Positions 1 through 13,557 of a DNA stretch of 41,540 bases are shown in pieces (position 1 is the stretch's first letter; each line of letters starts with the position of its first letter). The translations under genes and the position numbers were made by a program. Source of the stretch: an uncultured Candidatus Saccharibacteria bacterium (lineage in GTDB: Bacteria; Patescibacteriota; Minisyncoccia; GCA-002772825); the NCBI GenBank assembly GCA_964363045.1, contig CAYIGM010000003.1, forward strand, positions 1-41,540. The letters are read 5' to 3'. The notes under the pieces were generated by a model. The model was not told the DNA's origin, did not search any database, and worked only from the letters and a program-made list of their open reading frames with translations.

Positions 1-1
1 G

Positions 2-721
2 CTGAAGGAGATGGACCAGATCAAGTCCGACTTCGTGACTATTGCTTCTCATCAGCTTAGGACCCCGCTTACGGCTATCAAGGGTTATGCTTCGCTTATG
101 CTTGAGGGGAGTTACGGCAAAGTGCCGGAGAAGATGAAGGACCCTCTGAGTAAACTCTTCCGTTCTTCTGAGAGGATGGTGGTGATGGTGGGCGATTTCC
201 TAAATGTTTCTAGGATTGAGCGTGGCAAGATAGATTATGAATTCACAAAGTTTGATTTGAAGAAAATTGTTAAAGAACTTTTTGAGGAGTTTAAATTGAG
301 TATGGAGAAAGAGGGGAGAAGCGACCCCAAACTCTACTTTGACACAGAGGTTAAGGGGGAGGTGTTTGTAAATGGCGACGAGGGGAAGATCAAGCAGGTC
401 CTCTCCAACTTGATAGACAACTCTATAAAATACACGCCGTCCGGTTTTGTGAAGATAATTTTCTCTGTGTCGGAAGAAGGGGAAAAGACCGCTCTTGTCT
501 CTATCAAAGACAGTGGCGCCGGCATGAGTGAAGAGACGGTACATAAAATCTTTGAGAAGTTCAACAGGGCTAAAGACGCCTCTAGGTTCAACACCGAAGG
601 CTCCGGCCTCGGCCTCTACGTGGCCAAGGAATTCATCAAGAAGCACAACGGCCGCCTCTGGGCGGAAAGCCCCGGGGAGGGGAAGGGGTCTACTTTCTTT
701 GTAGAATTACCGTTGGGGTAG
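2..721 (+). CDS. sensor histidine kinase, C-terminal part (HisKA + HATPase_c); 5' end lies upstream of the window
   Basis: H-box SHQLRTPLTAIKGY, N-box-like LIDNSIKYT, G1 DSGAGM and G2 GSGLGL are present. The frame is open to the window edge (LKE precedes the Met at 11). Confidence 0.9.
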   Translation: MKEMDQIKSDFVTIASHQLRTPLTAIKGYASLMLEGSYGKVPEKMKDPLSKLFRSSERMVVMVGDFLNVSRIERGKIDYEFTKFDLKKIVKELFEEFKLSMEKEGRSDPKLYFDTEVKGEVFVNGDEGKIKQVLSNLIDNSIKYTPSGFVKIIFSVSEEGEKTALVSIKDSGAGMSEETVHKIFEKFNRAKDASRFNTEGSGLGLYVAKEFIKKHNGRLWAESPGEGKGSTFFVELPLG

Positions 722-847
722 TAGTATCTTTCTCGTCTCTCGCGAATTGATTGACTATCTAATGGTGGGTGGTAGTCTGAAAGTAGAGAAGTTTGGTCTT
801 TGAAAACTTAAACCATCCGCCTTGGCGGATAGAAGGGAGGTAGAGAG
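722..847 (+). promoter_or_regulatory. conserved leader copy A (promoter-like element + hairpin + SD) upstream of precursor peptide A
   Basis: TTGACT at 751-756, a 16-nt spacer, then TAGTCT at 773-778. Hairpin ATCCGCC/GGCGGAT at 815-830. SD GGGAGG at 835-840, 7 nt before the ATG at 848. Nearly identical to 9079-9204. Confidence 0.6.
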
Positions 848-991
848 ATGGAAACAAGCAAGATATTGGATGTCGTAGATAGGCATGTTGATGCACAAAA
901 TGCCCTAGGCAGTGATGGTCTTATCAGTGCTCATTCTGATGGCCCTGGGCACAACAACCACAGTGGAGACTCTGACCACGAAAACAGCTAG
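848..991 (+). CDS. 47-aa candidate RiPP precursor peptide A (METSKILDVVDRHVDAQNALGSDGLISAHSDGPGHNNHSGDSDHENS)
   Basis: Translated by hand and absent from the ORF track (below its length cut-off). Has a strong SD and sits directly upstream of a radical SAM/SPASM gene. The C-terminal half is rich in His/Asp/Ser/Gly/Asn and has no Cys. Confidence 0.65.
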   Translation: METSKILDVVDRHVDAQNALGSDGLISAHSDGPGHNNHSGDSDHENS

Positions 992-995
992 TCAA

Positions 996-1035
996 ATGAG
1001 AATGACTCTCCTGTAAAAAGGAGAGTCATTCTCAT
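996..1035 (+). promoter_or_regulatory. intercistronic 16-bp perfect stem-loop between precursor A and the rSAM gene
   Basis: ATGAGAATGACTCTCC (996-1011) pairs with GGAGAGTCATTCTCAT (1020-1035), with an 8-nt loop. The 3' arm contains the SD-like AGGAG and the ATG at 1034. Confidence 0.7.
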
Positions 1036-2125
1036 GATAGAAAAAGAGGATAAAATGCATATAATCCCGATTGTGAAAGTTGTATCAGAAACTTGTAATC
1101 TAAGATGTATCTATTGCTACTATCGCGACGGCAATCAAAATAAAATTCAGTTAATGTCATACAATGTGTTAACTGAGTTAATCAAAAAAACAATCCTCGA
1201 GATTAGAAACAGGATTACTTTTATCTGGCATGGCGGTGAGCCTTTACTTGCGGGCCGTTCGTTTTATCAGGACATTTTAGATATACAAAGTAAGTATAAA
1301 GAAGATAACCGCAAAGTGATAAACGGGGTTCAAACCAACGGCATTGTCCTCGACGGACGATGGGCTGAGTTCTTCTTTGAAAATCATTTTCGTGTTGGGG
1401 TAAGCTGCGATGGACCAAAGAAATACAACGATAAGAATCGTTTACTTGCTAACGGATTGAGTTCTTTTGATCGCGTATATAAAGGTATGCGCGATCTAAA
1501 AAGGTTCAATCTGGATCCTCATGTAATCTCAGTAATCACCCGCTCAAGTTTAGAAGGAGCACGCGAGATATACGAGTTTTTCAGGGATAATCAGTTATCA
1601 TTTCATCCTAAGCCATGCTCCGAGAGTGGCCGCAATGGCCTTCCAGCGGAATACTCCATTAATCCTGACGAATATACAGATTTCATGATAGAAATATTTG
1701 ATCTGTGGTGGAAAGATGATAATCCCCGGATCAAGATCAGAAATCTTTTTAATATTCTTATCGGATTGAGGGGAGGCAGGCCTAATTTGTGTGAGAGTAA
1801 TGGAGATTGCCACCTCTTTCTGACAGTTGAGCCTAATGGAGATGTTGGTCCTTGCGATAGTTTCTTAACCGGAAAATATCTTTTTGGCAATATAGAAAAA
1901 CAAAGCTGGAAAGAAATTTTAAATGGACCTGTGTATAAGAAATACCTTGAAGATATTGAGTACAGCAGAAGGTTTTGTAATGGATGCGAATGGCTCTCTG
2001 TCTGCAATGGTGGTTGCCTTAGATACTCGTTCGATGGAAATCAAGACAAATGGATTAAGAATCAGTTTTGTGAGTCAAAAATTCGTCTTTTTAAATACAT
2101 AAAAGAACGGATTTGCGCACGCTAA
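1034..2125 (+). CDS. radical SAM / SPASM-domain peptide-modifying enzyme (anSME-like family)
   Basis: CNLRCIYC CxxxCxxC cluster motif. C-terminal SPASM-type cysteines: CESNGDCHLFLTVEPNGDVGPCDSF ... CNGCEWLSVCNGGC. An alternative start is the ATG at 1055. Confidence 0.85.
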   Translation: MIEKEDKMHIIPIVKVVSETCNLRCIYCYYRDGNQNKIQLMSYNVLTELIKKTILEIRNRITFIWHGGEPLLAGRSFYQDILDIQSKYKEDNRKVINGVQTNGIVLDGRWAEFFFENHFRVGVSCDGPKKYNDKNRLLANGLSSFDRVYKGMRDLKRFNLDPHVISVITRSSLEGAREIYEFFRDNQLSFHPKPCSESGRNGLPAEYSINPDEYTDFMIEIFDLWWKDDNPRIKIRNLFNILIGLRGGRPNLCESNGDCHLFLTVEPNGDVGPCDSFLTGKYLFGNIEKQSWKEILNGPVYKKYLEDIEYSRRFCNGCEWLSVCNGGCLRYSFDGNQDKWIKNQFCESKIRLFKYIKERICAR

Positions 2126-2155
2126 AAGAGGTAGTTAAAAACTACCTCTTTTTTG
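2124..2155. terminator. bidirectional hairpin terminator between convergent genes
   Basis: AAAAGAGGTAGT / ACTACCTCTTTT stem with a 5-nt loop and flanking A/T runs. Confidence 0.7.
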
Positions 2156-3122
2156 TAGATTTCAATATTTTTGCAATCTTATCTATGAAATCTTTATCGA
2201 TCGGTTTTTTAATATTTATATAATTTTCAGTTAAAGAGATAATACTCTGTAGTACATTTTGACGAAAATCTGAAAAAGTATTAATTGGTGTCGGCTCCGT
2301 TTTTTTTAAAATGTTACCTAAATATTTAATGCCAATATATCCTTTTGGAACAAGGCTTTCTATTATGATCTCATTTATTGCAGTTAGCGGACTCATTTTT
2401 TCTTTAAAAAATTTTGTTTCTAAATTTATTTTGTTTTTGATGATAGTTTGCCTGATTAATTTAAGATGCCTCTCGTCTATGAAACAGAGGTGACATATCT
2501 CATGGAATATGACTCCCAGCGCATATTTTGTTAAAGAATGGTTCCGTGTTAAATTATTTATCTCTAAGGTTATTCCGCTTTCTCCTATATTTGCTCCGCC
2601 ACCAAGTTTGTCATTGCAAGGATGAGCTAAGAGGTAAATTGTCACTTTTTTTAAACTTACCTTGCTACCAAAAAAAGATTTAAGTTGGTTAAGTATAATT
2701 TTTGTTCTTTTATTAGTTAACTCATTTTCTATAATTTTTTTGTTAGTGGAGATTATTTTTGAGCCAATCTTCCACCAAATATTGAATTTTTTTTCAAAAA
2801 TATCAAAAGATTTCTCAATGATCTCGATATCTCTCTGCTTAAGAATAGCCCGCGCCTTAATAATAGCTTCTTTTTTATTTTTGCTCGTTATGAAGGACTC
2901 CCCAAGGTAAGTTAATACCCCTGGTTTTATTTGTTTGAATCCATATGCTGTCATTATTTTTTTTATTTGTTTCAGGTTGTTTTTTTCTTTATTAGTTAAG
3001 GCACCTAGAACCTTGAGCCACTCTTCGTTATAGTTTTTTCTGCAAGAGTAATGCCATTCTGAAAGATTTGTTACAAAGAAGAAAAAATTACCTATTCTTG
3101 AGGAAGTTACATTAAATTTCAT
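2142..3122 (-). CDS. hypothetical protein with HExxH (HEICH) motif, possible zinc metallopeptidase
   Basis: 326-aa ORF containing GVIFHEICHLCF. Convergent with the rSAM gene. No family recognised beyond the motif. Confidence 0.45.
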   Translation of the reverse strand: MKFNVTSSRIGNFFFFVTNLSEWHYSCRKNYNEEWLKVLGALTNKEKNNLKQIKKIMTAYGFKQIKPGVLTYLGESFITSKNKKEAIIKARAILKQRDIEIIEKSFDIFEKKFNIWWKIGSKIISTNKKIIENELTNKRTKIILNQLKSFFGSKVSLKKVTIYLLAHPCNDKLGGGANIGESGITLEINNLTRNHSLTKYALGVIFHEICHLCFIDERHLKLIRQTIIKNKINLETKFFKEKMSPLTAINEIIIESLVPKGYIGIKYLGNILKKTEPTPINTFSDFRQNVLQSIISLTENYINIKKPIDKDFIDKIAKILKSTKKR

Positions 3123-3171
3123 AATAGCTTTAGTATATAATATGTAGCTTAAGTATCAAAGGTGGTATTCC

Positions 3172-3334
3172 CTAGTTCAACACCGAAGGCTCCGGCCTCG
3201 ATCTCTATGTGGCCAAGGAATTCATCAAGAAGCACAACGGCCGCTTTTGGGCGGAGAGCCCCGGGGAGGGGAAGGGGTCTACTTTCTTTGTAGAGTTGCC
3301 GAGGGGGAAGGGCGTGTTGCCGTTAATTTATTGA
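3172..3334 (+). pseudogene. histidine-kinase 3'-end fragment, copy 2 (G2 box to stop)
   Basis: Encodes FNTEGSGLDLYVAKEFIKKHNGRFWAESPGEGKGSTFFVELPRGKGVLPLIY*. An in-frame TAG lies immediately upstream (3173-3175) and there is no start codon. Near-identical DNA to 583-721. Confidence 0.85.
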
Positions 3335-3377
3335 TTATGAAATAAGTATATTTAGTTTAGTATTAGCAACAATCATT

Positions 3378-4142
3378 ATGAATATTATCGTCTACTCAAA
3401 AGAAGAGGGCTTTGAGGGTGGTGTTAAAAAACTTGGCGATGAATCTTCTCAATGTGGAAAAACTTGCGAGATTATCGAGATAAAAGAATTACCTGGCTTG
3501 TTAAAAAGGGGATATTTTGAGACTATACAATTTAACATATATTTTCTCTCTAGCGATTATCGCATATCACATTTTATAGATATTATTAAAAAGAAAAACC
3601 AAACTGTGGTAAATGAGGCATTTTTAATTCGCGGCATAATTGTATCAAAATTTGAGTCATTGGAAAGAGTGCGTCGCGGTGGTATACACATACCAAGGCA
3701 TATACAACTAACATACGATGATAATAATTTTTTAGATAAATTAATTATGCCGGTTTTTATAAAGTCCAAGAGTCCGAGAGGGTTAGTTATTCGCGTTAAT
3801 GATAAAAAGTCACTAAATAATAGACTTGAATCATTGCCCGAAAAACAGAATTATTATCTTGAAGAAAATGTAAAGAATAAAGATAATATTGAATTAAAAA
3901 TTTATTATATTAATGGTGATGCATACGCACAAGAAATATGTGGTGCCAATACCGATATTCCAAGTTGGTTTCGTGTCGTATTGGATAAGATATCAAAATG
4001 TACAGAGCTAGATGTGTTTTCCGCAGATTTTTTTATTGATTGGGGAAAAGAGGAGTACTATTGTTTTGATATTAATCACGCATCATCTTTTTATAAATCT
4101 GAGAAAGCAAGAGAAGTATTTATTTCTAAAATTTTAAAATAA
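3378..4142 (+). CDS. ATP-grasp-like protein (putative)
   Basis: 254-aa ORF whose layout resembles RimK-type ATP-grasp proteins (PVFIKSKSPRGLVIRV, YYLEENV, ELKIYYINGD, YCFDINHASSF). The assignment comes from motif resemblance only. Confidence 0.45.
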   Translation: MNIIVYSKEEGFEGGVKKLGDESSQCGKTCEIIEIKELPGLLKRGYFETIQFNIYFLSSDYRISHFIDIIKKKNQTVVNEAFLIRGIIVSKFESLERVRRGGIHIPRHIQLTYDDNNFLDKLIMPVFIKSKSPRGLVIRVNDKKSLNNRLESLPEKQNYYLEENVKNKDNIELKIYYINGDAYAQEICGANTDIPSWFRVVLDKISKCTELDVFSADFFIDWGKEEYYCFDINHASSFYKSEKAREVFISKILK

Positions 4143-4143
4143 T

Positions 4144-4836
4144 ATGGATTGGGAAGAGATGTATATGAGTAAAATTAGACGCGCTGGTGGAATAGATCGA
4201 TATCTTCAAAAAAAAGAAGAAAGATCGGCGGGCGCACTCATTGAGCGTATAAGAAAAAATATTAAACCAGGGTCTCGTATTTTAGAGATTGGAACCGGAA
4301 CAGGCGCAATTGGGGCACTGCTCACCAAATACGGCTTTGATATGACGGCAATTGATAACGATTCAAAAATGATAAAAATAGCTAAAAAAACTTTTTCATT
4401 ATTTAATAAGGTTGATAATGTTTATTTATATAATGCTAAAGATATTATTAAAAAATTTGGATTAAATTCGTTTGCTTGCGTAATATCTCATGGGATGCTG
4501 GAACATTATTCAGATATAGAGATAATTAACTTTTTGAAGATACAGCTTTCTGTAGCTCCTCTTGTGATATTTGTTATACCAACATCCTCTATGTCAAAAA
4601 AATATAGATCTAAAGGGATTGGAGATGAAAGATATTTATCAACACAATACTGGAGAGAATTGATCAGAAAAGATTTTTTTATTCAGTATATTTTTGGATT
4701 TGGATTTAAAGAAACAAATTTCCCGCAGTCTTTTGAAATACTATTAAAAAATAATACCATAGCGAGGTTACTTGCTCCATTATGCGGTATTAATGAATTT
4801 TGGATTATCGCTAAAGGGGATAATTTTACTTTTTGA
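4144..4836 (+). CDS. class I SAM-dependent methyltransferase
   Basis: Motif I ILEIGTGTGAIG followed by an acidic residue in AIDND. Tightly follows the preceding gene (2-nt gap). Confidence 0.75.
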   Translation: MDWEEMYMSKIRRAGGIDRYLQKKEERSAGALIERIRKNIKPGSRILEIGTGTGAIGALLTKYGFDMTAIDNDSKMIKIAKKTFSLFNKVDNVYLYNAKDIIKKFGLNSFACVISHGMLEHYSDIEIINFLKIQLSVAPLVIFVIPTSSMSKKYRSKGIGDERYLSTQYWRELIRKDFFIQYIFGFGFKETNFPQSFEILLKNNTIARLLAPLCGINEFWIIAKGDNFTF

Positions 4837-5239
4837 TGAGATGATAAATTTCCTTAAAATATTCTTTTAAGTTGTTATAACTTAATATCGAAGATACCTC
4901 ATTTATTGGTATCCATTTAATATTATCTTCTTTAAATTCCGGCCTTAAAAGGGTATCATCCTCAGATTGTACCAAAAACATTTTTGTCGAGATATTGCCT
5001 CCATTTGGATGTGTATAATTTATACCCGGCAATTCTCGTAGAATTATTATAGATAGCCCGGTCTCTTCTTTGATCTCTCTCCTCATTGTGGCGGTCGGAT
5101 TTTCACCCTCCTCAATGTGCCCCTTGGGAAAAGACCAATCATTTTGTTTTCCACGATAAAGCAGAGCAATTTTATTTTGATCATCTTTGCTCAAAATAAT
5201 GGCGCCGGCTTTTTGTGTTGATTTAGTTTTGATAATCAT
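4826..5239 (-). CDS. NUDIX hydrolase
   Basis: Nudix box GHIEEGENPTATMRREIKEETGL (GX5EX7REUXEEXGU). Confidence 0.85.
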   Translation of the reverse strand: MIIKTKSTQKAGAIILSKDDQNKIALLYRGKQNDWSFPKGHIEEGENPTATMRREIKEETGLSIIILRELPGINYTHPNGGNISTKMFLVQSEDDTLLRPEFKEDNIKWIPINEVSSILSYNNLKEYFKEIYHLIKK

Positions 5240-5289
5240 TACTATATAATAACTTATTTTAATATGTTTATAAATAAGTATTTTTATTC

Positions 5290-5327
5290 AAAAAAATCCC
5301 CCTTATTCTTGATAAAATAAGGGGGGT
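5290..5327 (-). terminator. rho-independent terminator after the P-loop gene
   Basis: CCCCCTTATT / AATAAGGGGG stem, followed on the minus strand by a T-run. Confidence 0.65.
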
Positions 5328-5352
5328 TAAGAAGTAAATTTAGATTAACGAT

Positions 5353-5889
5353 TCATTTGATTTTTCCGGTCACGGAAAGATACTCAAAAAGAGCTTTTGC
5401 TTCTAAAGCTTGTAATTCCTGTGATGCTATCCCGCAAAAAGACCACTCTATTTGAGAGAGAAGGCAGTGATAATCTTCTTTATCATGCCAATGTCGCGCT
5501 CTTCTATCATCAAGAGTTAGATCTTCGGGGCTACTCCTCTTTAGTCTTAGTTCTTTTGGAATAAATACGCCCGCCAAGGTGCTTTCGCTATCTACTTCTT
5601 TAATGGCTCGCCATTCATCGGGGGTATGAATAGCATCAAGAAGAATGACATTATTTGGGTTTCTGTCGTATTCAATTCTCCTTAGCAGGTGATGCATGAT
5701 TTCATACCCTCCCATCGTTCGATAGAGATTACGATACCAATCAGTCCATGCGGGTTCGTTTTCCCCAATGTCAGACCATTCTTTTAGTAGGGCTCGCTTC
5801 AAGAGCCATTTCCATCCAAATCTTTTTTCCATATATTGGCAGAGATGTGATTTTCCCGAACTATGAAAACCAGCAAATCCTATAATCAT
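5353..5889 (-). CDS. P-loop NTPase / small-molecule or nucleotide kinase-like protein
   Basis: Walker A GFHSSGKS at the N-terminus. 178 aa, similar in size to dephospho-CoA or nucleoside-monophosphate kinases. Confidence 0.5.
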   Translation of the reverse strand: MIIGFAGFHSSGKSHLCQYMEKRFGWKWLLKRALLKEWSDIGENEPAWTDWYRNLYRTMGGYEIMHHLLRRIEYDRNPNNVILLDAIHTPDEWRAIKEVDSESTLAGVFIPKELRLKRSSPEDLTLDDRRARHWHDKEDYHCLLSQIEWSFCGIASQELQALEAKALFEYLSVTGKIK

Positions 5890-5916
5890 TTTTTTCTCCT
5901 CATCTTACGGGTGAGA

Positions 5917-7011
5917 TTATTTTTTTTCTGCCATCGCGGCGGACATACAGTGTATTTCGGGGGTGCAGGAATTTCCCCAGAAGGAAGAAAGATTCTGTAT
6001 CATAAAATCCCCGACGCTGGACACTCCTAACGGCTCTAAAAAACCACAAGTATGAACACGGCCATTCGGAGATATGGAAAGTCCTCGCCGTCCAGCTTTA
6101 CACTTGTGCCATGCGAACGGGAGTTTGATTCTTGGGGCGGTATCAATTTCCTTGAGATAATGACCACTGACAATTCCCTTTGGGTCAGAAAGAAATGAAT
6201 CTAGTTTGATGCGCAGAACATTATAGTCATCAGTTGTCAGCATTTCTTGCGCATTACTTGCTCTTCCTGACGGGATTAACCTCCGGATCATTATTGGTAC
6301 ATTTCGGTCAGAGAAATATCGCACCACATGAGGGATTTCCAACAAATTGCTCTTCATGGCAACGAGGTTCACTCTTACAGGAATTTGAGCTTCTATTAAA
6401 AACTCAATACCCTTAAGAGTTTTTTGAAACATTCCAAGCCCTCGAATAGAATCGTGCCTATCTTCGAGGCCATCGACGCTGACAATCGCAACATTTAGAC
6501 CAATTTCGGAAAGACGCTTTGCGACTGTAGCATCGATAAGTGTTCCGTTTGTACCCAGTGATGCGCGTAAACCAGCTTCTCGGATCTTTAAAATGTAATC
6601 AAAGATTGAAGATATAAGAAGAGGCTCTCCTCCGGTGAAGCGAACTTCTTGAACTCCAGACATACAAAAATCCTCAAGGAGAGAGATTTTTCGCTCATGA
6701 GATAACTCGACAGGTAATGATTCACTAGAGTCATTAAGGCAATGAGTGCAGTGTAGATTGCATGCACGAGAGAGCTCAAAAAAGATTATATCTGGCGCGC
6801 TGAAATTATCAGCAGGGAGAGTGCTTGGTTCACGGATGATTACCTCGGTTGACGTCGTCTTCAATTCAATCCGAAGATTATAAGGAACAAGACCCTCGTT
6901 CTTTATCTGTTGGAATTCTAGTGGAGTAATGTATATCCTCTTTCCGGAGACTGCATTGCTGATTGTCCCGCCAAAAAATTCTTTTCTGAGTAATGATGCT
7001 TGTCTTTTCAT
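5917..7011 (-). CDS. radical SAM enzyme with partial SPASM/twitch C-terminal domain and an N-terminal extension
   Basis: CNLHCTHC cluster motif, GGEPLL, and C-terminal CKAGRRGLSISPNGRVHTC plus CTPEIHC. I moved the start to the ATG at 7011, which is preceded by AGGAGG; the ORF track uses the TTG at 7053. Confidence 0.8.
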   Translation of the reverse strand: MKRQASLLRKEFFGGTISNAVSGKRIYITPLEFQQIKNEGLVPYNLRIELKTTSTEVIIREPSTLPADNFSAPDIIFFELSRACNLHCTHCLNDSSESLPVELSHERKISLLEDFCMSGVQEVRFTGGEPLLISSIFDYILKIREAGLRASLGTNGTLIDATVAKRLSEIGLNVAIVSVDGLEDRHDSIRGLGMFQKTLKGIEFLIEAQIPVRVNLVAMKSNLLEIPHVVRYFSDRNVPIMIRRLIPSGRASNAQEMLTTDDYNVLRIKLDSFLSDPKGIVSGHYLKEIDTAPRIKLPFAWHKCKAGRRGLSISPNGRVHTCGFLEPLGVSSVGDFMIQNLSSFWGNSCTPEIHCMSAAMAEKK

Positions 7012-7046
7012 CTTTGTCCTCCTTAAGATAAGTTTATTTTTTTTAA

Positions 7047-7076
7047 TTGACAAAGTACATTTCTAATATATAGAAT
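7047..7076 (+). promoter_or_regulatory. sigma70-like promoter, TTGACA-18 nt-TAGAAT
   Basis: TTGACA at 7047-7052 and TAGAAT at 7071-7076, 9 nt upstream of the ATG at 7086. Confidence 0.55.
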
Positions 7077-7085
7077 GCATATATT

Positions 7086-7181
7086 ATGATTGAAAGTCAA
7101 CATCAAAAATTACAACAAGCGTTTGAGGCACAAAAAAATTGTTTGAATCTTTGTTATCGTAGTAGCTGGACGGCTTCGTGA
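7086..7181 (+). CDS. 31-aa Cys-containing small ORF (MIESQHQKLQQAFEAQKNCLNLCYRSSWTAS)
   Basis: Translated by hand. Lies directly downstream of a strong promoter and divergent from the rSAM gene. Its stop TGA overlaps the GTG at 7178 of the kinase fragment. Confidence 0.3.
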   Translation: MIESQHQKLQQAFEAQKNCLNLCYRSSWTAS

Positions 7182-7447
7182 AAATTATCTTTTCCCTGCC
7201 GGAGGGGAAGAACACCGCCCTTGTGTATATTAAAGATTCCGGCGCCGGCATGAGTGAAGAGACGGTACATAAAATCTTTGAGAAGTTCAACAGGGCTAAA
7301 GACGCCTCTAGGTTCAACACCGAAGGCTCCGGCCTCGGCCTCTATGTGGCCAAGGAATTCATCAAGAAGCACAACGGCCGCTTTTGGGCGGAGAGCCCCG
7401 GGGAGGGGAAGGGCTCAACCTTCTTCGTGGAATTGCCGCTTAGTTAG
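7167..7447 (+). pseudogene. histidine-kinase 3'-end fragment, copy 3 (G1 box to stop); retains an 89-aa ORF from the GTG at 7178
   Basis: Homologous to 448-721: VKIIFS..KDSGAGMSEETVHKIFEKFNRAKDASRFNTEGSGLGLYVAKEFIKKHNGRFWAESPGEGKGSTFFVELPLS*. TAGTAG stops lie just upstream in frame. HisKA and the N-box are missing. Confidence 0.8.
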
Positions 7448-7462
7448 AGAGGGTAAAATATT

Positions 7463-7606
7463 ATGAGAAATAAATTTGAAGAAGAAGGCTTAAAAGTAGA
7501 GAAAAAAGGACAGTTAGATTTTTTAAAAAATGTCCTTAATAGATATGATAAACTTTATTTTGATGGTGCAGCAGATGGTATTAAATATCTAAAGAACATA
7601 AAATGA
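7463..7606 (+). CDS. 47-aa small ORF (MRNKFEEEGLKVEKKGQLDFLKNVLNRYDKLYFDGAADGIKYLKNIK)
   Basis: Translated by hand. Starts 15 nt after kinase fragment 3 and overlaps the next start as ATGA (7603-7606). Confidence 0.35.
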   Translation: MRNKFEEEGLKVEKKGQLDFLKNVLNRYDKLYFDGAADGIKYLKNIK

Positions 7607-8170
7607 AAAATATTGAATTAAAAGTAGAAGTTGATAATTTTGATGATATTATCGGCGTGCTGAAAAAAAGGCGCTAAATATAATGGCGAATTGTTTCAAA
7701 TAGACACCTATTATCATTGTGACCAAGGAAGACTGAAGTTAAGGGAGATAAATCATTCTGTCTTTGAGCTAATTTTTTATAAGAGGCCAAATAAATTTAG
7801 ATCCAAGATCTCTGAATATCAAATCATAGATATGCCAAAAATAAGTCTCGGAAGGATAAAATTAGAGTTGTCATCTATATATGGTGAAAAGAATATTGTT
7901 CGAAAGAAAAGAAATTTATGGATATATAAGAATACAAGAATACATCTTGATGATGTCTATGGCCTTGGAGGATTCTTAGAAATTGAGACAGTGGTGAAAA
8001 ATATTGATATCAAGCAAGCTAGAAAGGAGCACAGTGAAATTATATCCCTGTTGAATCTCTTGGAATATAAAAAAATAGATAAGTCTTATGGGGATTTGAT
8101 CCCCGTCATTCCTGTTAGGAAAGATATTTCGGTAGATAATACAATGATGAAGTGTCCATTGTTTTCCTAA
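7603..8170 (+). pseudogene. CYTH-domain protein (CyaB/class IV adenylate cyclase-like), interrupted by a frameshift in an A7 run
   Basis: MKNIELKVEVDNFDDIIGVLKK reads into a stop at 7675-7677. Removing one A from 7663-7669 restores ...LKKGAKYNGELFQIDTYYHCDQGRLKLRE..., which continues as ORF 7691-8170. Confidence 0.65.
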
Positions 8171-8201
8171 AAACAAACAATATCTATAAGTAAAAGGTAC
8201 G

Positions 8202-8246
8202 CTCTTCGTGGAGCTACCGAGGGGGTAGTAGATTTGACGGTAGTTT
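8202..8246 (+). repeat. 30-nt stub of the kinase 3' end plus a decayed leader remnant
   Basis: CTCTTCGTGGAGCTACCGAGGGGGTAGTAG matches ..FVELPRG* and the GTAGTAG start of the leader. It is followed by ATTGACGGTAGT, which matches the leader's TTGAC and GGTAGT blocks. Confidence 0.6.
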
Positions 8247-8249
8247 TTA

Positions 8250-8258
8250 TGGTATAAT
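8250..8258 (+). promoter_or_regulatory. extended -10 box TGgTATAAT, 6 nt upstream of the mntA GTG
   Basis: TG at 8250-8251 and TATAAT at 8253-8258. There is no SD before the start at 8265. Confidence 0.5.
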
Positions 8259-8264
8259 ACACCT

Positions 8265-8555
8265 GTGGAAAAGGATATTATTATTGAAAAATTAAATAAA
8301 ACCCTGCCGATTTTAAAGGAAAAATACAATGTGAAAAGCATGGGTGTCTTCGGCTCGTATATAAGAAATGAGGCAAAGGCAGGGAGTGATCTGGATATTT
8401 TAGTCACATTTGAAAAACCGATAGGATTGTTAAAATTTATAGAGCTGGAAAATTATCTTTCGGATATAACAGGAATAAAAGTTGATTTGGTATCTAAAAG
8501 GGCGCTTAAGCCCAGAATCGGAAAACAGATATTAGCGGAAGTTGTTAATATATAA
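8265..8555 (+). CDS. mntA: MntA-type nucleotidyltransferase antitoxin
   Basis: GVFGSYIRNEAKAGSDLDILV (GSxxR..SDxD polymerase-beta NTase motif), 96 aa, directly abutting a DUF86 gene. Confidence 0.85.
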   Translation: MEKDIIIEKLNKTLPILKEKYNVKSMGVFGSYIRNEAKAGSDLDILVTFEKPIGLLKFIELENYLSDITGIKVDLVSKRALKPRIGKQILAEVVNI

Positions 8556-8912
8556 GTGATGAAAAGAGATTATCTGGATTATCTTCAAGATATTATTGAC
8601 TCAATAAATGACATTGAGAGCTTTGTTAGTGGAATGAATTTTAATTCGTTTGAAAAAGATAAAAAGACTTTAAATGCAGTGGTAAGGAGTTTGGAAATAA
8701 TAGGTGAAGCTGTTAAAAAAATACCGGATGAGGTAAAAAATAAATACACTAACATTCCATGGAAAAATATGTCGGGAATGAGGGATAAATTGATCCACGA
8801 ATATTTTGGAATTGATGAAGATATCGTTTGGAGGGTTGCAGTAGAGGAATTGCCACCACTAAAGCCGTTTTTTGAAAAAATTTTAACAGAAACGGAAGGA
8901 GAAAATCTTTAA
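8556..8912 (+). CDS. hepT: HepT (DUF86/HEPN) toxin
   Basis: HEPN RX4H motif in RDKLIHEYFGID, 118 aa. The real start is probably the ATG at 8559. Confidence 0.85.
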   Translation: MMKRDYLDYLQDIIDSINDIESFVSGMNFNSFEKDKKTLNAVVRSLEIIGEAVKKIPDEVKNKYTNIPWKNMSGMRDKLIHEYFGIDEDIVWRVAVEELPPLKPFFEKILTETEGENL

Positions 8913-9081
8913 GAAATTCAATAGGGCTAAAGACGCCTCCAAGTTCAACACCGAAGGCTCCGGTCTCGGCCTCTATGTGGCCAAAGAGTTCATCACTAAA
9001 CACAATGGCCGCCTCTGGGCGGAGTCAGCTGGCGAAGGAAAGGGGAGCACCTTCTTCGTGGAGTTGCCGAGTGGGAAGTAG
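8902..9081 (+). pseudogene. histidine-kinase 3'-end fragment, copy 4 (more diverged)
   Basis: Encodes (E)KIFKKFNRAKDASKFNTEGSGLGLYVAKEFITKHNGRLWAESAGEGKGSTFFVELPSGK*. There is no start codon. The homology begins inside the last codons of hepT, in another frame. Confidence 0.85.
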
Positions 9082-9204
9082 TATCTTTCTTGTCTCTCGC
9101 GAATTGATTGACGATCTAATGGGGGGTGGTAGTCTGAAAGTAGAGAAGTTTGGTCTTTGAAAACTTAAACCATCCGCCTTGGCGGATAGAAGGGAGGTAG
9201 AGAG
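9082..9204 (+). promoter_or_regulatory. conserved leader copy D upstream of precursor peptide D
   Basis: Aligned from the TAG (9079-9204 versus 722-847) I count 3 mismatches in 126 nt, and the last 78 nt are identical. TTGACG at 9108-9113, TAGTCT at 9130-9135, hairpin at 9172-9187, GGGAGG at 9192-9197. Confidence 0.6.
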
Positions 9205-9348
9205 ATGAAGAAAACGAATCTAATGCCATTGATTCTTGATTTGGCGGAAAAAGTCGATGTCGTCTACGACAAGAGTGGTAGACAGGTTTGTTTCGCTGGT
9301 ACAACTCAGGGAACTTATGACGAACCTGACTCCGCTGGTCCCGACTAA
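9205..9348 (+). CDS. 47-aa candidate graspetide precursor D (MKKTNLMPLILDLAEKVDVVYDKSGRQVCFAGTTQGTYDEPDSAGPD)
   Basis: Translated by hand. Has a strong SD and sits immediately upstream of an MvdD/MdnC-like ATP-grasp gene. The C-terminus is rich in Thr/Ser plus Asp/Glu and contains TTQGTYDE. Confidence 0.7.
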   Translation: MKKTNLMPLILDLAEKVDVVYDKSGRQVCFAGTTQGTYDEPDSAGPD

Positions 9349-9353
9349 GCACA

Positions 9354-9397
9354 TTAGTTAGGATGGGCGAGGACACTTCCTCTCCCATCCTAACTAA
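9354..9397 (+). promoter_or_regulatory. intercistronic long stem-loop between precursor D and the ATP-grasp gene
   Basis: TTAGTTAGGATGGG (9354-9367) pairs with CCCATCCTAACTAA (9384-9397), with further inner pairing (one mismatch). There is no T-run. Confidence 0.65.
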
Positions 9398-9427
9398 CAC
9401 TTAACTAATAAAAAGGAGGTGATGGAC

Positions 9428-10357
9428 ATGATTTTAATAATCGGAAATAGTTCAGACAAGGCCAAGACCGTTGTAGATGAAATCAAGAAAATAAGCAAAA
9501 AGAAAGTCATCATCTTTAAAGCCGACAAATGCATAGAGGGAGAAGCTATAGGATTTTCCCTTATTAATGACAAGGCGATGTTATTTGCCGATATAAGTGG
9601 AAAAGATTTTGATTTAAATGAAGCAACATCCGTATGGTACTGGAAGCCGTTGTTGCCCAAGGTCTTGAGAACTATAGAGCCAGCAAGACATCAAATATTC
9701 ATCCATAGGCAGTTTTTAACAATATGGCGTTCAATTGCCAGTTGCCTATCTGACAGGATGTGGATCAATGACTACTACAAACTGTTAGAAGCCGAGAATA
9801 AGCCATACCAAATAAAGCTGGCTTCAGAAATCGGATTTGATATTCCAGATACTCTTATCACTTCTGATCCGAAAAGAGCAATAGATTTTTGGGAATATTG
9901 TGATAAGAAAATGATAATTAAAACTTTAGCTCTCAGTCAGACTGAAGATAGTATGATCTACACTAACAAAGTCACAGAGGAGATAATGCTAAAAATAGAA
10001 AGGCTGAGGTCGTCGCCAGTTATTATGCAGAAGCTAGTCCCCACAAAATACGGACTAAGGATAACTGTAGTGGGTGATGATATTTTCCCCGCTAGAGTTG
10101 AGAGTGACAGTGAAATCGATTGGCGTAGAAGTGAGATTAAACTCAAAAAATATCATCTACCTGGAGAAATTAAAGATAAATGTTTCTGCATGGTAAGGAA
10201 GTTAGGACTAAAGTATGGTTGTATAGATATGATACTCACACCTGATGGTAAATATGTTTTTCTGGAAATAAATCCAAATGGACAGTGGAGTTTTGTCGCA
10301 GAAAGGACGGGTATGCCGATTGGAGAGGCCATCGCACATTTGCTAGTTCACGAGTGA
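9428..10357 (+). CDS. MvdD/MdnC-family ATP-grasp ligase (graspetide / omega-ester peptide synthetase-like)
   Basis: SVWYWKP, ENKPYQIKLA, VIMQKLV, RITVVGDDIF, DWRR and CIDMILTPDGKYVFLEINPNGQW. The start is placed at the ATG 8 nt after AAGGAGG; the ORF track starts at the GTG at 9419. Confidence 0.8.
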   Translation: MILIIGNSSDKAKTVVDEIKKISKKKVIIFKADKCIEGEAIGFSLINDKAMLFADISGKDFDLNEATSVWYWKPLLPKVLRTIEPARHQIFIHRQFLTIWRSIASCLSDRMWINDYYKLLEAENKPYQIKLASEIGFDIPDTLITSDPKRAIDFWEYCDKKMIIKTLALSQTEDSMIYTNKVTEEIMLKIERLRSSPVIMQKLVPTKYGLRITVVGDDIFPARVESDSEIDWRRSEIKLKKYHLPGEIKDKCFCMVRKLGLKYGCIDMILTPDGKYVFLEINPNGQWSFVAERTGMPIGEAIAHLLVHE

Positions 10358-10360
10358 AAA

Positions 10361-10389
10361 GGGAGAAACATTTCGTTTCTCCCTTTTTT
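10361..10389 (+). terminator. rho-independent terminator
   Basis: GGGAGAAAC / GTTTCTCCC stem with a 5-nt loop, followed by TTTTTT. Confidence 0.8.
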
Positions 10390-10434
10390 GATTATTAAGA
10401 TCAAAATGCTAAAATAATACTATGAAATAATACT

Positions 10435-10971
10435 ATGATTAGAAACAAGAAATTACAACAGAAAGTCTTAAAAATGGCATCAATGGATCAAAAAGCAAGA
10501 AAACAGTTCGTAAACGATAGCCAGAATAAGAAATTAGCTAAGCGTATTTATAATTGTGATACTAAAAATATTATAAAAGCAAAAGAAATTATTAAGAAAT
10601 ATGGTTGGCCAACTTTTGATTTAGTCGGGAAAAGAGCTTCCGATGCTTTTTGGCTATTAGTCCAGCACTCTGATAGGGATATAAAGTTTCAAAAGAGGTG
10701 TTTGGCTCTTTTGAGAGAAGTGGTAGAAAATAAGCAGGCTCACTCCAAAAATTTGGCTTTCCTTACTGACAGGATTTTATCAGCTGAAAGTAAAAAGCAA
10801 AAATTTGGTACACAATTTATCTTTAAGAACGGAAGGGCTGTTGTAAAGCCGGTTCAGGACAGAAAGAATCTCAATAAAAGAAGAATCAAATATGGGTTAA
10901 ATACAATAGAGGAAAGAACAAAAGAGATAAATAAAGAGTACTCTAAGATGTTATCGTTGATGAAGAAATAA
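10435..10971 (+). CDS. hypothetical protein (resembles the DUF6624-type helical family)
   Basis: 178-aa ORF with GWPTFDLVGKRASDAFWLLVQHSD and LTDRIL motifs. The family assignment is from memory and is weak. Confidence 0.35.
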   Translation: MIRNKKLQQKVLKMASMDQKARKQFVNDSQNKKLAKRIYNCDTKNIIKAKEIIKKYGWPTFDLVGKRASDAFWLLVQHSDRDIKFQKRCLALLREVVENKQAHSKNLAFLTDRILSAESKKQKFGTQFIFKNGRAVVKPVQDRKNLNKRRIKYGLNTIEERTKEINKEYSKMLSLMKK

Positions 10972-10982
10972 ATAATATTTTG

Positions 10983-11028
10983 CTTAAACACTCAAATCCG
11001 CCGCGGCGGATAGAAAGGAGGTAGAGAG
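10983..11028 (+). promoter_or_regulatory. partial leader copy E (hairpin + SD only)
   Basis: CTTAAAC..ATCCGCCGCGGCGGATAGAAAGGAGGTAGAGAG matches the 3' third of leaders A and D. The stem is kept and the loop differs. Confidence 0.6.
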
Positions 11029-11055
11029 ATGGAAACAAGATGGTTTACTTGCTAG
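11029..11055 (+). pseudogene. 8-aa ORF METRWFTC*, probably the truncated remnant of a precursor-A-like gene
   Basis: The first 11 nt (ATGGAAACAAG) are identical to precursor A, after which the sequence diverges and stops. Confidence 0.45.
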
Positions 11056-11090
11056 TTTACTTATGTTTTTGAGCAGATTAAACTAGATAT

Positions 11091-12116: not shown

Positions 12117-12179
12117 GAGCGATGGTTGAATGACAAGAGGCAATATCTTTTATAAAATATATAAAAAGCTTTAATTCAT

Positions 12180-12302
12180 ATGGGTAAGTTCGTTAAAATA
12201 GGCTTCGGAGGATCTTATCGCTTCTCTATGAAAAATTGGAATAAATTAAAAAAAAGGTGGGCATCTATCGGCAAAAAATTTTATGAAAAAGAGCTTTTAT
12301 AA
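12180..12302 (+). CDS. 40-aa basic small ORF (MGKFVKIGFGGSYRFSMKNWNKLKKRWASIGKKFYEKELL)
   Basis: Translated by hand in a 230-nt intergenic gap. No homology recognised. Confidence 0.15.
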   Translation: MGKFVKIGFGGSYRFSMKNWNKLKKRWASIGKKFYEKELL

Positions 12303-12349
12303 AAAGATAATGGAATTTATTAAGAAAAATGATAGAATATTGATAATAT

Positions 12350-12814: not shown

Positions 12815-12847
12815 TTATATATATAGATATTTAAAATAATATAAATA

Positions 12848-13294: not shown

Positions 13295-13330
13295 TTTGAC
13301 ACTATCCTCGGTGTGTATTAGTATAAAAAT

Positions 13331-13453: not shown

Positions 13454-13479
13454 AATAAAATTTATTTTAAAGAATTAGA

Positions 13480-13510
13480 AAAACCCCGGCTGGATGAAAG
13501 CCGGGGTTTT
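13480..13510 (+). terminator. rho-independent terminator
   Basis: AAAACCCCGGC / GCCGGGGTTTT stem with a 9-nt loop. Confidence 0.75.
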
Positions 13511-13557
13511 ATCTAGTAAAAAATAGTTCGTTAACAATCTAAACAGGGAGAAGAAAG

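What the first reader, a model, noticed from the sequence alone, without database searches (positions are those of the whole stretch)
848..3122. Cys-free, His-rich 47-aa peptide paired with an anSME-like radical SAM/SPASM enzyme: candidate new RiPP
The unannotated ORF METSKILDVVDRHVDAQNALGSDGLISAHSDGPGHNNHSGDSDHENS has a strong SD. It lies 42 nt upstream of a SPASM-domain radical SAM gene.

The peptide has no Cys, Trp, Tyr, Phe, Lys or Met in its C-terminal half. This rules out sactipeptide/ranthipeptide thioethers and Lys-Trp links.

Its only aromatic residues are four His in H-x-x triplets: HSD, HNN, HSG and HEN. Radical SAM/SPASM enzymes that make three-residue cyclophanes (triceptides) are known to act on aromatic-X-X motifs, including His-containing ones. 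His-C-to-beta-carbon crosslinks are therefore a plausible but unproven chemistry here.

A convergent HExxH protein (2142-3122) could be the leader peptidase.

A RiPP of this kind would be unusual in an organism that otherwise looks genome-reduced.
Basis: partly seen in the sequence, partly recalled or inferred. Interest (0 to 1): 0.85.

Follow-up and report, generated by a model that had tools for sequence, protein, structure and literature searches.

The report
Cyclophane-type modified-peptide gene cluster in CPR bacterium
A real, conserved three-gene module (small His/Asp-rich precursor peptide, radical SAM enzyme, unclassified zinc-protease-like protein) found in tiny-genome Patescibacteria most likely makes a ring-crosslinked peptide of the known "triceptide" type, using an enzyme lineage and a partner protein that have not been described.

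Summary
The 47-aa ORF (848-991) is a genuine gene. Homologous peptides lie next to homologues of the radical SAM/SPASM gene and of the convergent HExxH gene in 26 of 27 complete related loci, all from metagenomes and, where named, from CPR/Patescibacteria. The peptides share a Lys/Ile-rich leader and a His/Tyr/Trp- and Asp/Asn-rich C-terminal core. The only spacing enriched in that core is aromatic-x-Asp/Asn (2.5-fold over shuffles). His, Tyr and Trp swap at the aromatic position while Asp stays. This is the substrate motif of three-residue cyclophane ("triceptide") synthases, for which Tyr-x-Asp and His-x-X links are published.

The enzyme is not a member of any defined triceptide-synthase family. 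It is closest to anaerobic sulfatase maturase (294 bits, below the cut-off) and DynA. The HExxH protein has invariant HExxH plus Glu, no Pfam family, and only weak zincin-like fold matches. Its role as leader peptidase is inferred.

The chemistry is untested. Verdict: new variant of a known kind, moderately interesting.

The parts
722..847 (+). Non-coding promoter/5'-UTR module ahead of the precursor gene. It holds TTGACT at 755-760, a short hairpin CCATCCGCC-TTGG-CGGATAG at 813-832, and the SD GGGAGG.
   Evidence: Sequence. It is conserved upstream of the L001 precursor. It is repeated at 98% identity at 9079-9204, ending exactly at the ATG of a different small ORF. Promoter function is inferred.
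848..991 (+). Precursor peptide gene (47 aa). The leader is roughly residues 1-28, with the conserved K-I-L/V-x-x-[IVA] element. The core is roughly residues 29-47 (nt 932-988), HSDGPGHNNHSGDSDHENS, with candidate crosslink motifs H29-S-D31, H35-N-N37 and H44-E-N46.
   Evidence: The leader/core boundary and the modified residues are inferred from conservation.
996..1035 (+). Perfect 17-bp stem-loop between the precursor gene and the rSAM gene. It is a probable attenuator or transcript-stabilising element that sets the precursor:enzyme ratio.
   Evidence: I7; dG -30.9 kcal/mol, z = -7.5, 0 of 200 shuffles fold as well. It is kept in L001 with compensatory changes, and L002 has a hairpin plus T-run at the same place. 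Function is inferred.
1055..2125 (+). Radical SAM/SPASM peptide maturase, anSME-like. The longest ORF starts at 1034, but the likely start is ATG 1055. It has the CxxxCxxC motif plus eight conserved auxiliary-cluster Cys, and no N-terminal RRE domain.
2125..2154 (.). Hairpin AAAGAGGTAG-TTAAAAA-CTACCTCTTT followed by a T-run (A-run on the other strand). It overlaps the stop codons of both convergent genes and is a probable bidirectional terminator.
   Evidence: Read directly. It was not called by the consensus scanner. Inferred.
2142..3122 (-). HExxH protein (326 aa), a member of an unclassified family. It has invariant H207, E208, H211 and E251, and an invariant N-terminal motif NL.E(W/F)H(F/Y)SCRK..N..W. 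It is the putative leader peptidase.
3132..3159 (-). Sigma-70-like promoter match (TTGATA-16-TATACT, 10 of 12) just upstream of the HExxH gene.
   Evidence: This is a consensus match only.
3176..3307 (+). Fragment copy of the 3' end of the upstream histidine-kinase gene (aa 193-236). It marks the right-hand boundary of the cassette.

Best explanation
Window 722-3160 is a self-contained three-gene RiPP cassette of a Roizmanbacteria-like CPR bacterium.

Proposed steps:
1. The 47-aa peptide is a precursor. Its N-terminal leader (conserved K-I-L/V-x-x-[IVA] helix-like element) docks it to the enzymes.
2. The radical SAM/SPASM enzyme reductively cleaves SAM and abstracts a Cbeta hydrogen from the Asp/Asn at position +2 of each aromatic-x-Asp/Asn motif.
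3. The substrate radical adds to the imidazole of the His two residues upstream, most likely at C2. This gives a three-residue cyclophane and a loss of 2 Da per motif.
4. The likely targets are H29-S-D31 and H35-N-N37, and probably H44-E-N46. The product would carry two or three small rings.
5. The convergent HExxH protein, a zincin-like metalloprotease, then removes the leader.
6. The stem-loop between the precursor and enzyme genes keeps the precursor transcript in excess.

Shown here: the genes, their conservation and co-occurrence, the motif and its register, the Fe-S ligands, and the invariant HExxH...E.

Inferred: the hydrogen abstraction site, the bond formed, the protease role, and the hairpin's role. 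The biological function of the product is unknown.
For: Co-occurrence:
- 26 of 27 complete loci carrying rSAM + HExxH homologues have a candidate precursor. It lies upstream of the rSAM, upstream of the HExxH gene, or after the rSAM.
- Peptide HMM: 26 hits at E<=3e-9, with noise starting at E=2.
- A database search with the peptide profile returned 30 proteins at E <= 0.01 (29 besides the window's own peptide); every sequence fetched carries HND/YND/HTD-type cores.

Leader/core architecture:
- The leader is rich in K/I/V/E.
- The core is enriched in H, Y, W, D, N and G.

Motif:
- Aromatic-x-[D/N] occurs 81 times against 32.8 expected (2.47-fold). All other registers give 0.5-1.4-fold.
- Asp31 is invariant in clade A.
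- H and Y interchange at both aromatic positions.
- Another clade uses W-x-D repeats.

Co-diversification: the rSAM tree splits exactly by precursor core class.

Enzyme:
- Radical SAM + SPASM.
- It aligns end to end with anSMEcpe, including all cluster Cys.
- It also matches peptide crosslinkers DynA (251 bits), DarW (173), GrrM/OscB (157), DarE (155) and YhhB (150), and the triceptide synthase ChlB in the PDB (96 bits).

Published chemistry (PMC11002830, PMC11499958, PMC12912966):
- YxdB makes a Tyr-C3 to Asp-Cbeta link.
- OscB links Trp-C7 to Asn/Asp-Cbeta.
- HaaB, YhhB, HtkB and MicB link His-C2 to X3-Cbeta.
- A His-to-Tyr swap is tolerated by ScaB.

HExxH protein:
- H207, E208, H211 and E251 are invariant in 41 sequences.
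- The AF2 model is confident (pLDDT 89, pTM 0.90).
- The only protein-family signals are weak zincin ones: SprT-like (E=0.0026 for P0126), Wss1p, proabylysin, M61, 4l7a and SPRTN.

Negative context: no sulfatase gene anywhere in the 41.5-kb window.
Against: - No experiment exists. No mass shift or bond has been observed.
- The rSAM scores far below the curated cut-offs of every cyclophane-synthase model: YhhB 150 vs 445, GrrM/OscB 157 vs 310, XyeB 102 vs 450, FxsB 118 vs 370, AmcB 132 vs 425. Its best match is a protein maturase, anSME.
- Most relatives carry a conserved Cys immediately before the first aromatic residue. A thioether is therefore also possible in them.
- Fold matches for the HExxH protein are not significant: best E = 0.06 for the whole protein and 0.49 for the catalytic half, with TM 0.2-0.3.
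- No exporter or immunity gene belongs to the conserved module.
- A few loci have the HExxH gene without an adjacent rSAM (L094, L117).
- The sequences used for motif statistics are related, so the enrichment is not a formal probability.
Confidence: 0.6

Rival explanations
1. Same precursor and enzyme pair, but different radical chemistry. Options include:
- a C-N link (His N-tau to Cbeta), as DynA makes in dynobactin;
- a C-O ether, as in darobactin;
- a Cys-S to Asp-Cbeta thioether in the Cys-bearing relatives (ranthipeptide-like);
- oxidation, decarboxylation or epimerisation at the conserved Asp without ring formation. This last option could yield a metal-chelating His/modified-Asp peptide.
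For: - DynA is the second-best curated model (251 bits). It makes a His-N to Tyr-Cbeta bond on an i/i+2 pair (PMC11002830).
- The enzyme is closest to anSME, which oxidises a Cbeta rather than crosslinking.
- Asp275 aligns with the position I recall as the general base of anSMEcpe (Asp277; residue role from memory, not checked in a paper here). It is invariant.
- The motif D-x-P-x-[H/Y] in clades A and B mimics the sulfatase C/S-x-P-x-R motif, with Asp at the attacked position.
- A conserved Cys precedes the first motif in most relatives.
- The core is made of classic metal ligands: H, D, C and Y.
Against: - The window peptide and its two closest relatives have no Cys in the core, and one further clade-A relative (L100) has a Cys only in its leader. 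The second motif never has Cys. A thioether therefore cannot be the family's common reaction.
- His, Tyr and Trp interchange at one aligned position. That fits attack on an aromatic carbon better than on an imidazole nitrogen.
- The requirement for an aromatic residue exactly two residues before Asp/Asn would be unexplained by a simple Asp oxidation.
Confidence: 0.22
2. The rSAM is a protein maturase, as anSME is for sulfatases. On this reading its substrate is the HExxH protein, for example at the invariant Cys27 in the flexible, invariant loop E-W-H-F/Y-S-C-R-K. The small peptide would then be a substrate, inhibitor or regulator of the matured metalloenzyme rather than the rSAM's substrate.
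For: - The rSAM's best hit is anSME, at 294 bits, with a full-length alignment.
- The rSAM and HExxH genes are the most constant pair and are always adjacent.
- Cys27 is invariant among 41 HExxH proteins.
- Cys27 sits in the lowest-confidence segment of an otherwise confident model (pLDDT about 70 for residues 21-30).
Against: - The loop lacks the C/S-x-P-x-R sulfatase signature.
- The peptides have a typical leader/core layout, and their core class co-varies with rSAM clade. That is what is expected of an enzyme-substrate pair.
- The rSAM also has the HGGEP motif seen in the peptide maturase ChlB, rather than anSME's QGGEP.
Confidence: 0.08
3. The peptide is an unmodified small acidic His-rich protein, such as a metal-binding or signalling peptide. 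On this reading it merely travels with the two enzymes, which act on something else.
For: - His/Asp-rich composition.
- Histidine-kinase genes lie near the module in three loci: the window, L083 and L086.
Against: - The register-specific motif.
- Tight linkage in three different gene orders.
- Co-diversification with the rSAM.
Confidence: 0.05
4. Chance ORF next to an ordinary anaerobic sulfatase maturase.
For: The anSME model is the top hit.
Against: - The score is below the anSME cut-off (293.9 vs 349.45).
- There is no sulfatase in the window.
- The ORF is conserved with purifying selection on its core.
- The peptide HMM separates by nine orders of magnitude from noise.
Confidence: 0.01

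Closest known systems
Triceptides and their three-residue cyclophane-forming rSAM/SPASM enzymes (3-CyFEs): YxdB (Tyr-x-Asp); HaaB, YhhB, HtkB and MicB (His-x-X); OscB (Trp-x-Asn/Asp); ChlB (PDB 9gm3)
   Same: - Leader-core precursor with repeated aromatic-X-X motifs.
- The i/i+2 register.
- Asp/Asn at X3.
- His, Tyr and Trp accepted at position 1.
- An rSAM/SPASM maturase without an RRE domain.
- The expected leader cleavage before the first motif (PMC11002830, PMC11499958, PMC12912966).
   Different: - The maturase is outside every curated 3-CyFE family (102-157 bits against cut-offs of 310-450). It is nearer to anSME (204 bits in the PDB, against 96 for ChlB).
- I found no report of a His-x-Asp/Asn link.
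- It has an obligatory HExxH partner of an undescribed family.
- It is found in CPR/Patescibacteria only.
- No transporter is part of the module.
Anaerobic sulfatase-maturating enzyme (anSME, TIGR03942; PDB 4k36-4k39)
   Same: - Best sequence match, aligned end to end.
- Same three-cluster Cys pattern and the C-D dipeptide of the active site.
- D-x-P-x-[H/Y] in the peptides resembles C/S-x-P-x-R.
   Different: - The score is below the family cut-off.
- There is no sulfatase nearby.
- It is linked to a small leader-core peptide and has WHGGEP instead of FQGGEP.
- The attacked residue cannot be Cys/Ser-to-formylglycine in a peptide whose conserved positions are His/Tyr and Asp.
Daropeptide and dynobactin maturases (DarE, DarW, DynA)
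   Same: - Second-best curated match (DynA, 251 bits).
- These are also anSME-like rSAM/SPASM enzymes without an RRE that crosslink aromatic residues to Cbeta at i/i+2.
- DynA uses a His (PMC11002830).
- One clade of relatives has W-x-W-N-D cores (L102, L113, L123).
   Different: - The score is below cut-off (251 vs 450).
- The window peptide has no Trp.
- There is no DarBCD-type transporter.
- The source is CPR rather than Gammaproteobacteria.
Minimal zincin metallopeptidases (SprT/Wss1/SPRTN, minigluzincins such as proabylysin, M61/M1 gluzincins)
   Same: - HExxH on a helix that follows a three-stranded sheet.
- An invariant Glu 40 residues later.
- These are the only families that give any signal.
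   Different: - No match is significant.
- The protein has an additional 150-residue N-terminal helical/winged region with its own invariant motif.
- There is no Pfam family.
- About 774 cluster representatives exist, all about 300-350 aa.

Membership tests
Triceptide (3-CyFE) RiPP system | Radical SAM maturase with a SPASM domain and a full set of Fe-S ligands | tested here: met
   PF04055 3e-15 and PF13186 1.2e-11. C21/C25/C28 plus eight further Cys are invariant in 25 homologues and align with anSMEcpe cluster ligands.
Triceptide (3-CyFE) RiPP system | Precursor core carries conserved aromatic(1)-X(2)-X(3) motifs | tested here: met
   The window has HSD, HNN and HEN. In 34 distinct relatives aromatic-x-[D/N] occurs 81 times against 32.8 expected, while other registers give 0.5-1.4-fold. 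H/Y interchange with an invariant Asp.
Triceptide (3-CyFE) RiPP system | Maturase belongs to a recognised 3-CyFE sequence family (XyeB, GrrM/OscB, FxsB, YhhB, AmcB) | tested here: not met
   NCBIfam scores against cut-offs: GrrM/OscB 157 vs 310, YhhB 150 vs 445, AmcB 132 vs 425, FxsB 118 vs 370, XyeB 102 vs 450.
Triceptide (3-CyFE) RiPP system | C-C bond between an aromatic ring carbon and Cbeta of residue 3 (-2 Da per motif) | not testable with these tools
   Needs co-expression, HR-MS/MS and NMR.
Anaerobic sulfatase maturase (TIGR03942) | Score at or above the curated equivalog cut-off | tested here: not met
   293.9 bits against a cut-off of 349.45. PRK13758 gives 237 vs 441.
Anaerobic sulfatase maturase (TIGR03942) | A sulfatase substrate with C/S-x-P-x-R encoded in the genome neighbourhood | tested here: not met
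   No sulfatase domain in any ORF of >=100 aa scanned in the 41.5-kb window, nor among the genes called around five related rSAM genes.
Dynobactin/darobactin maturases (NF041298 DynA, NF038005 DarE) | Score at or above cut-off, and a Trp-containing W-x-W / W-N-x core | tested here: not met
   DynA 251 vs 450 and DarE 155 vs 650. The window core has no Trp.
Sactipeptide / ranthipeptide | Cys donors in the core for thioether formation | tested here: not met
   There is no Cys in the window peptide. PapB model 120 vs 340 and SCIFF maturase 89.5 vs 425. Many relatives do have one Cys before motif 1.
Zincin (gluzincin-type) metallopeptidase, for ORF 2142-3122 | HExxH plus a downstream Glu as third zinc ligand, all invariant | tested here: met
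   H207, E208, H211 and E251 are invariant in 41 sequences. That E251 is a zinc ligand is inferred.
Zincin (gluzincin-type) metallopeptidase, for ORF 2142-3122 | Significant sequence or fold similarity to a known peptidase family | tested here: inconclusive
   - Pfam: nothing at E<=0.01 for the window protein. SprT-like gives E=0.0026 for homologue P0126, below the cut-off.
- PDB profile: Wss1p E=0.12 and proabylysin E=0.48.
- Foldseek: M61 7xyo E=0.064, 4l7a E=0.081, SPRTN 6mdw E=0.49, with TM 0.2-0.3.
Zincin (gluzincin-type) metallopeptidase, for ORF 2142-3122 | Cleaves the precursor's leader | not testable with these tools
   Needs an in vitro assay with modified and unmodified precursor.

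The most novel reading that the evidence does not exclude
An anSME-derived enzyme lineage confined to CPR/Patescibacteria installs a crosslink or Asp modification that has not yet been described. One candidate is His-C2 or His-N to Asp-Cbeta, which would create rigid His/carboxylate metal-binding rings.

It would work together with a new family of zincin-like proteins whose N-terminal domain substitutes for the missing RiPP recognition element.

The cassette would be one unit of a swappable array. In that array different RiPP precursors (this one and a graspetide-type one at 9205) are plugged behind an identical 126-nt promoter/5'-UTR module attached to fragments of a histidine-kinase gene. 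The symbiont could then exchange secreted or metal-binding peptides under one two-component control.
Probability: 0.15. Interest if true: 0.8.

Novelty: new variant of a known kind. Interest (0 to 1): 0.58.

Why it matters
- CPR/Patescibacteria have tiny genomes, and few natural-product pathways are known from them. The held literature had no paper describing this module. The only related note is that CPR graspetide loci often also encode SPASM enzymes and zincin peptidases (PMC8939145).
- This is a compact, portable three-gene system with dozens of natural precursor variants (His, Tyr and Trp versions). It is suited to heterologous expression.
- It would extend cyclophane chemistry to His-x-Asp/Asn.
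- It would show how an anSME-like scaffold was recruited for peptide crosslinking.
- It would give a first function to an uncharacterised HExxH family of several hundred sequence clusters.
- The product may bear on how these episymbionts interact with hosts or acquire metals.

Tried and rejected
- Scan of GTDB genomes with an rSAM alignment. It was useless for context.
- Looking only upstream of rSAM homologues for the peptide. This failed in four distant loci and briefly suggested that the ORF was not conserved. The peptides were then found upstream of the HExxH gene on the other strand or after the rSAM.
- Pfam and NCBIfam on the peptide and the HExxH protein: no family.
- Foldseek with the whole HExxH model and with its C-terminal half: no significant match.
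- Rfam on 1-15000: nothing. The 5'-UTR fold is not better than shuffles (z = -0.08), so no riboswitch-like claim is made.
- The JACS 2022 triceptide landscape paper is not held. I therefore could not check whether these CPR sequences sit in its network, or compare them with YxdB/HaaB.
- An ATP-grasp role in this cassette was rejected. ATP-grasp genes are in the window but not next to the module in the other loci whose called genes were listed.
- The integrase-borne island idea: no integrase domain was found.


Full report
**1. What is in the window**

It has a GGGAGG Shine-Dalgarno 8 nt before the ATG.

ORF 1034-2125 (+) is a radical SAM protein with a SPASM domain. ORF 2142-3122 (-) is convergent and contains HEICH.

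A perfect 17-bp stem-loop (996-1035) lies between the peptide and the enzyme gene. Its free energy is -30.9 kcal/mol, z = -7.5, and 0 of 200 shuffles fold as well.

A second hairpin with a T-run (2125-2154) overlaps the stop codons of both convergent genes.

Homologues of the enzyme start at the equivalent of Met8. That ATG (1055) has its own GAGGA. The enzyme therefore probably starts at 1055, and the stem-loop is free-standing.

**2. The enzyme**

NCBIfam ranks the models as follows (score against curated cut-off):

| Model | Score | Cut-off |
|---|---|---|
| Anaerobic sulfatase maturase (TIGR03942) | 293.9 | 349.45 |
| DynA | 251 | 450 |
| DarW | 173 | 650 |
| GrrM/OscB | 157 | 310 |
| DarE | 155 | 650 |
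| YhhB | 150 | 445 |
| AmcB | 132 | 425 |
| PapB | 120 | 340 |
| FxsB | 118 | 370 |
| XyeB | 102 | 450 |

- No curated cut-off is reached.
- In the PDB the order is anSMEcpe (204 bits), the triceptide synthase ChlB (96) and CteB (81).
- The alignment with anSMEcpe runs end to end and keeps all cluster cysteines and the C-D active-site dipeptide. It has WHGGEP where anSME has FQGGEP.
- There is no N-terminal RRE domain.

**3. Is the small ORF conserved?**

Closest relatives:
- The closest enzyme homologue (P0001, 85% identity, Candidatus Roizmanbacteria) has the ORF at the same place: MSTKKILDAVDEHIGAQNALGSDGFTASHSDSPGHNNSSGDSDHENS.
- A 56%-identical enzyme has ...INFHTDGPSYNDQGGNPDHSNWGNN.

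Selection between the window and L001:
- The ORF shows 13 synonymous and 12 non-synonymous codon changes.
- 18 of 36 base differences fall at third positions.
- Only 2 amino-acid changes fall in the 19-residue core.
- The stem-loop is kept through compensatory changes (gaatgac/gtcattc versus gagtggc/gccactc).

More distant loci (40-46% identity) have no ORF upstream of the enzyme. The homologous peptide instead lies upstream of the convergent HExxH gene on the other strand. Examples are ...SGCHTDGPGHNDHSGTGSDHTKDCG...DCYSDGPSYSDSSGSDDHNRCV and ...VGCHNDNSGGTHNDN.

**4. Wider sample**

- An alignment of the HExxH proteins retrieved 45 metagenomic loci. In most loci with enough flank, an anSME-like rSAM is convergent right after the HExxH gene.
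- A peptide HMM run against all 2779 small ORFs of 52 loci gave 26 hits at E<=3e-9. Nothing else scored until E=2.
- Four further loci have Trp/Asp-rich ORFs placed after the rSAM gene. Examples are ...KWNDHGDWDDSGSWADWEDGGEPFDDWIDQE and ...DWEDQWVHWDDLGGDDPGWGD....
- In all, 26 of 27 complete, distinct loci have a candidate precursor. The exception ends at a contig edge.
- The precursor occupies three different positions relative to the two enzymes, so linkage is maintained despite rearrangement.
- A few loci have the HExxH gene without an adjacent rSAM (L094, L117) or have a frameshifted HExxH gene.
- A profile search of 5.8 billion proteins found 30 peptides. The dominant type is ...QQIGCHND[NGS]SGG[TGS]HNDN.

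**5. The motif**

- The peptides have a K/I/V/E-rich leader with a conserved G-x-[KR]-I-[LV]-x-x-[IVA] element.
- The C-terminal core is enriched in H, Y, W, D, N and G.
- In clade A the first motif is [H/Y]-[S/T/N]-D with an invariant Asp. The second is [H/Y]-[N/S/T]-[D/N]. A third, D-[H/F/Y]-x-x, is looser. The window's HSG (His38) is not conserved.
- Over 34 distinct peptides, aromatic-x-[D/N] occurs 81 times against 32.8 expected from shuffling each core (2.47-fold). Offsets +1, +3, +4, -1 to -4 give 0.5-1.4-fold. The sequences are related, so this is descriptive rather than a probability. The pattern does recur in three enzyme clades with His/Tyr, Tyr-His and Trp versions.
- A neighbour-joining tree of the enzymes splits exactly by precursor core class.

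**6. Comparison with known chemistry**

- Triceptides are defined by aromatic(1)-X(2)-X(3) motifs, crosslinked from a ring carbon to Cbeta of residue 3 by rSAM/SPASM enzymes.
- Reported links include Tyr-C3 to Asp-Cbeta (YxdB), Trp-C7 to Asn/Asp-Cbeta (OscB), and His-C2 to Ala/Arg/Lys/Ser-Cbeta (HaaB, YhhB, HtkB, MicB).
- A His-to-Tyr substitution in the ScaB substrate is still crosslinked (PMC11002830, PMC11499958, PMC12912966).
- DynA makes a His-N to Tyr-Cbeta bond at i/i+2 (PMC11002830).
- The family here fits the triceptide substrate logic closely. The enzyme is nevertheless not a member of any curated cyclophane-synthase family, so membership is not claimed.
- D-x-P-x-[H/Y] in clades A and B resembles the sulfatase C/S-x-P-x-R motif, with Asp at the attacked position. 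This is compatible with Cbeta-H abstraction from Asp by an anSME-derived active site. It is inference.

**7. The HExxH protein**

- It has no Pfam or NCBIfam family.
- Among 41 homologues, H207, E208, H211, E251, C27 and a few others are invariant.
- The AF2 model is confident (pLDDT 89, pTM 0.90). It shows a three-stranded sheet followed by the HExxH helix and the Glu helix.
- Only weak zincin signals appear:
  - SprT-like at E=0.0026 in one homologue;
  - Wss1p and proabylysin;
  - M61, 4l7a and LTA4H;
  - SPRTN for the C-terminal half.
- The family has about 774 representatives at 50% clustering, all single-domain and about 300-350 aa. Named members are all CPR: Berkelbacteria, Pacebacteria, Roizmanbacteria and the Patescibacteria group.
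- A leader-peptidase role is the simplest reading but is inferred.
- The invariant Cys27 loop leaves room for the rival that the rSAM matures this protein.

**8. Context**

- The window is a CPR chromosome segment with aminoacyl-tRNA synthetases, ScpAB, FtsW, MurG and BipA.
- The cassette lies at the start of a roughly 13-kb accessory stretch, bounded by repeated fragments of the histidine-kinase 3' end.
- Its 126-nt upstream non-coding region recurs at 98% identity in front of a graspetide-type precursor at 9205.
- No sulfatase, exporter or integrase is in the cassette.

**9. Verdict**

- The system works like a triceptide pathway but fails the sequence-family membership test for known synthases.
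- It is best called a new variant of a known kind: a CPR-restricted, anSME-like maturase with a new HExxH partner.
- The bond, the protease step and the product's role remain to be shown.

Noticed in passing
window 301-721, 3176-3307, 7172-7441, 8902-9075: The 3' end of the histidine-kinase gene is present four times. There is the full gene plus three fragments covering aa 193-236, 145-235 and 179-236, at 91-93% amino-acid identity. Each fragment runs to the native stop region. The copies delimit successive accessory-gene cassettes. No integrase domain was found. This looks like serial cassette insertion or recombination at the HK 3' end.
   Followed up: partly
window 722-847 and 9079-9204; small ORF 9205-9348 (+); ATP-grasp 9419-10357 (+): The non-coding 126 nt ahead of the His-rich precursor is repeated at 98% identity, higher than the adjoining HK coding repeat. 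The repeat ends exactly at the ATG of another small ORF, MKKTNLMPLILDLAEKVDVVYDKSGRQVCFAGTTQGTYDEPDSAGPD. That ORF has a PLILDL graspetide-type leader motif and is followed by an MvdD-like ATP-grasp ligase. Two different RiPP precursors therefore share one promoter/5'-UTR module.
   Followed up: partly
window 10996-11040: A third, partial copy of that module is present: the hairpin, the SD and the first 11 nt of the His-rich peptide gene. It gives a truncated ORF, METRWFTC*. It looks like a recombination scar.
   Followed up: no
window 3378-7053: The second cassette contains a weakly RimK/ATP-grasp-like ORF (3378-4142), a SAM methyltransferase (4144-4836), a NUDIX protein (4826-5239, -), an unknown 178-aa ORF (5353-5889, -) and a second radical SAM enzyme of the NirJ/AhbD-like type (5917-7053, -). 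It may be another peptide- or cofactor-modifying set. No precursor was looked for.
   Followed up: no
window 7691-8170, 8556-8912, 10435-14157: Further accessory genes follow: CYTH, a HepT-like RNase toxin, DUF6624, a UPF0020 methyltransferase, a second NUDIX protein, a nucleotidyltransferase-like ORF and a GNAT. Similar neighbours (UPF0020 methyltransferase, NUDIX, CYTH) flank the module in L084 and L086.
   Followed up: no
L083 11755-13116; L086 809-2869; window 11-721: Histidine kinases lie within a few kb of the three-gene module in three loci. Those in L083 and L086 have a HisKA_7TM sensor, and L086 also has a response regulator. A regulatory or signalling link is possible but untested.
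   Followed up: no
L086 6926-7420: A stand-alone C39 peptidase-domain gene sits next to the precursor/HExxH genes in this relative. This hints at bacteriocin-type processing in some members.
   Followed up: no
HExxH protein residues 21-30 (window about 3033-3062, -): The invariant motif E-(W/F)-H-(F/Y)-S-C-R-K lies in the least confident loop of an otherwise confident model. It could be a cysteine-switch-like or modified site.
   Followed up: no
window 40001-41540: G+C rises to 54-56% over the adenylosuccinate-lyase gene, against about 35-42% elsewhere. The HK 3' end is also G+C-rich (47%).
   Followed up: no
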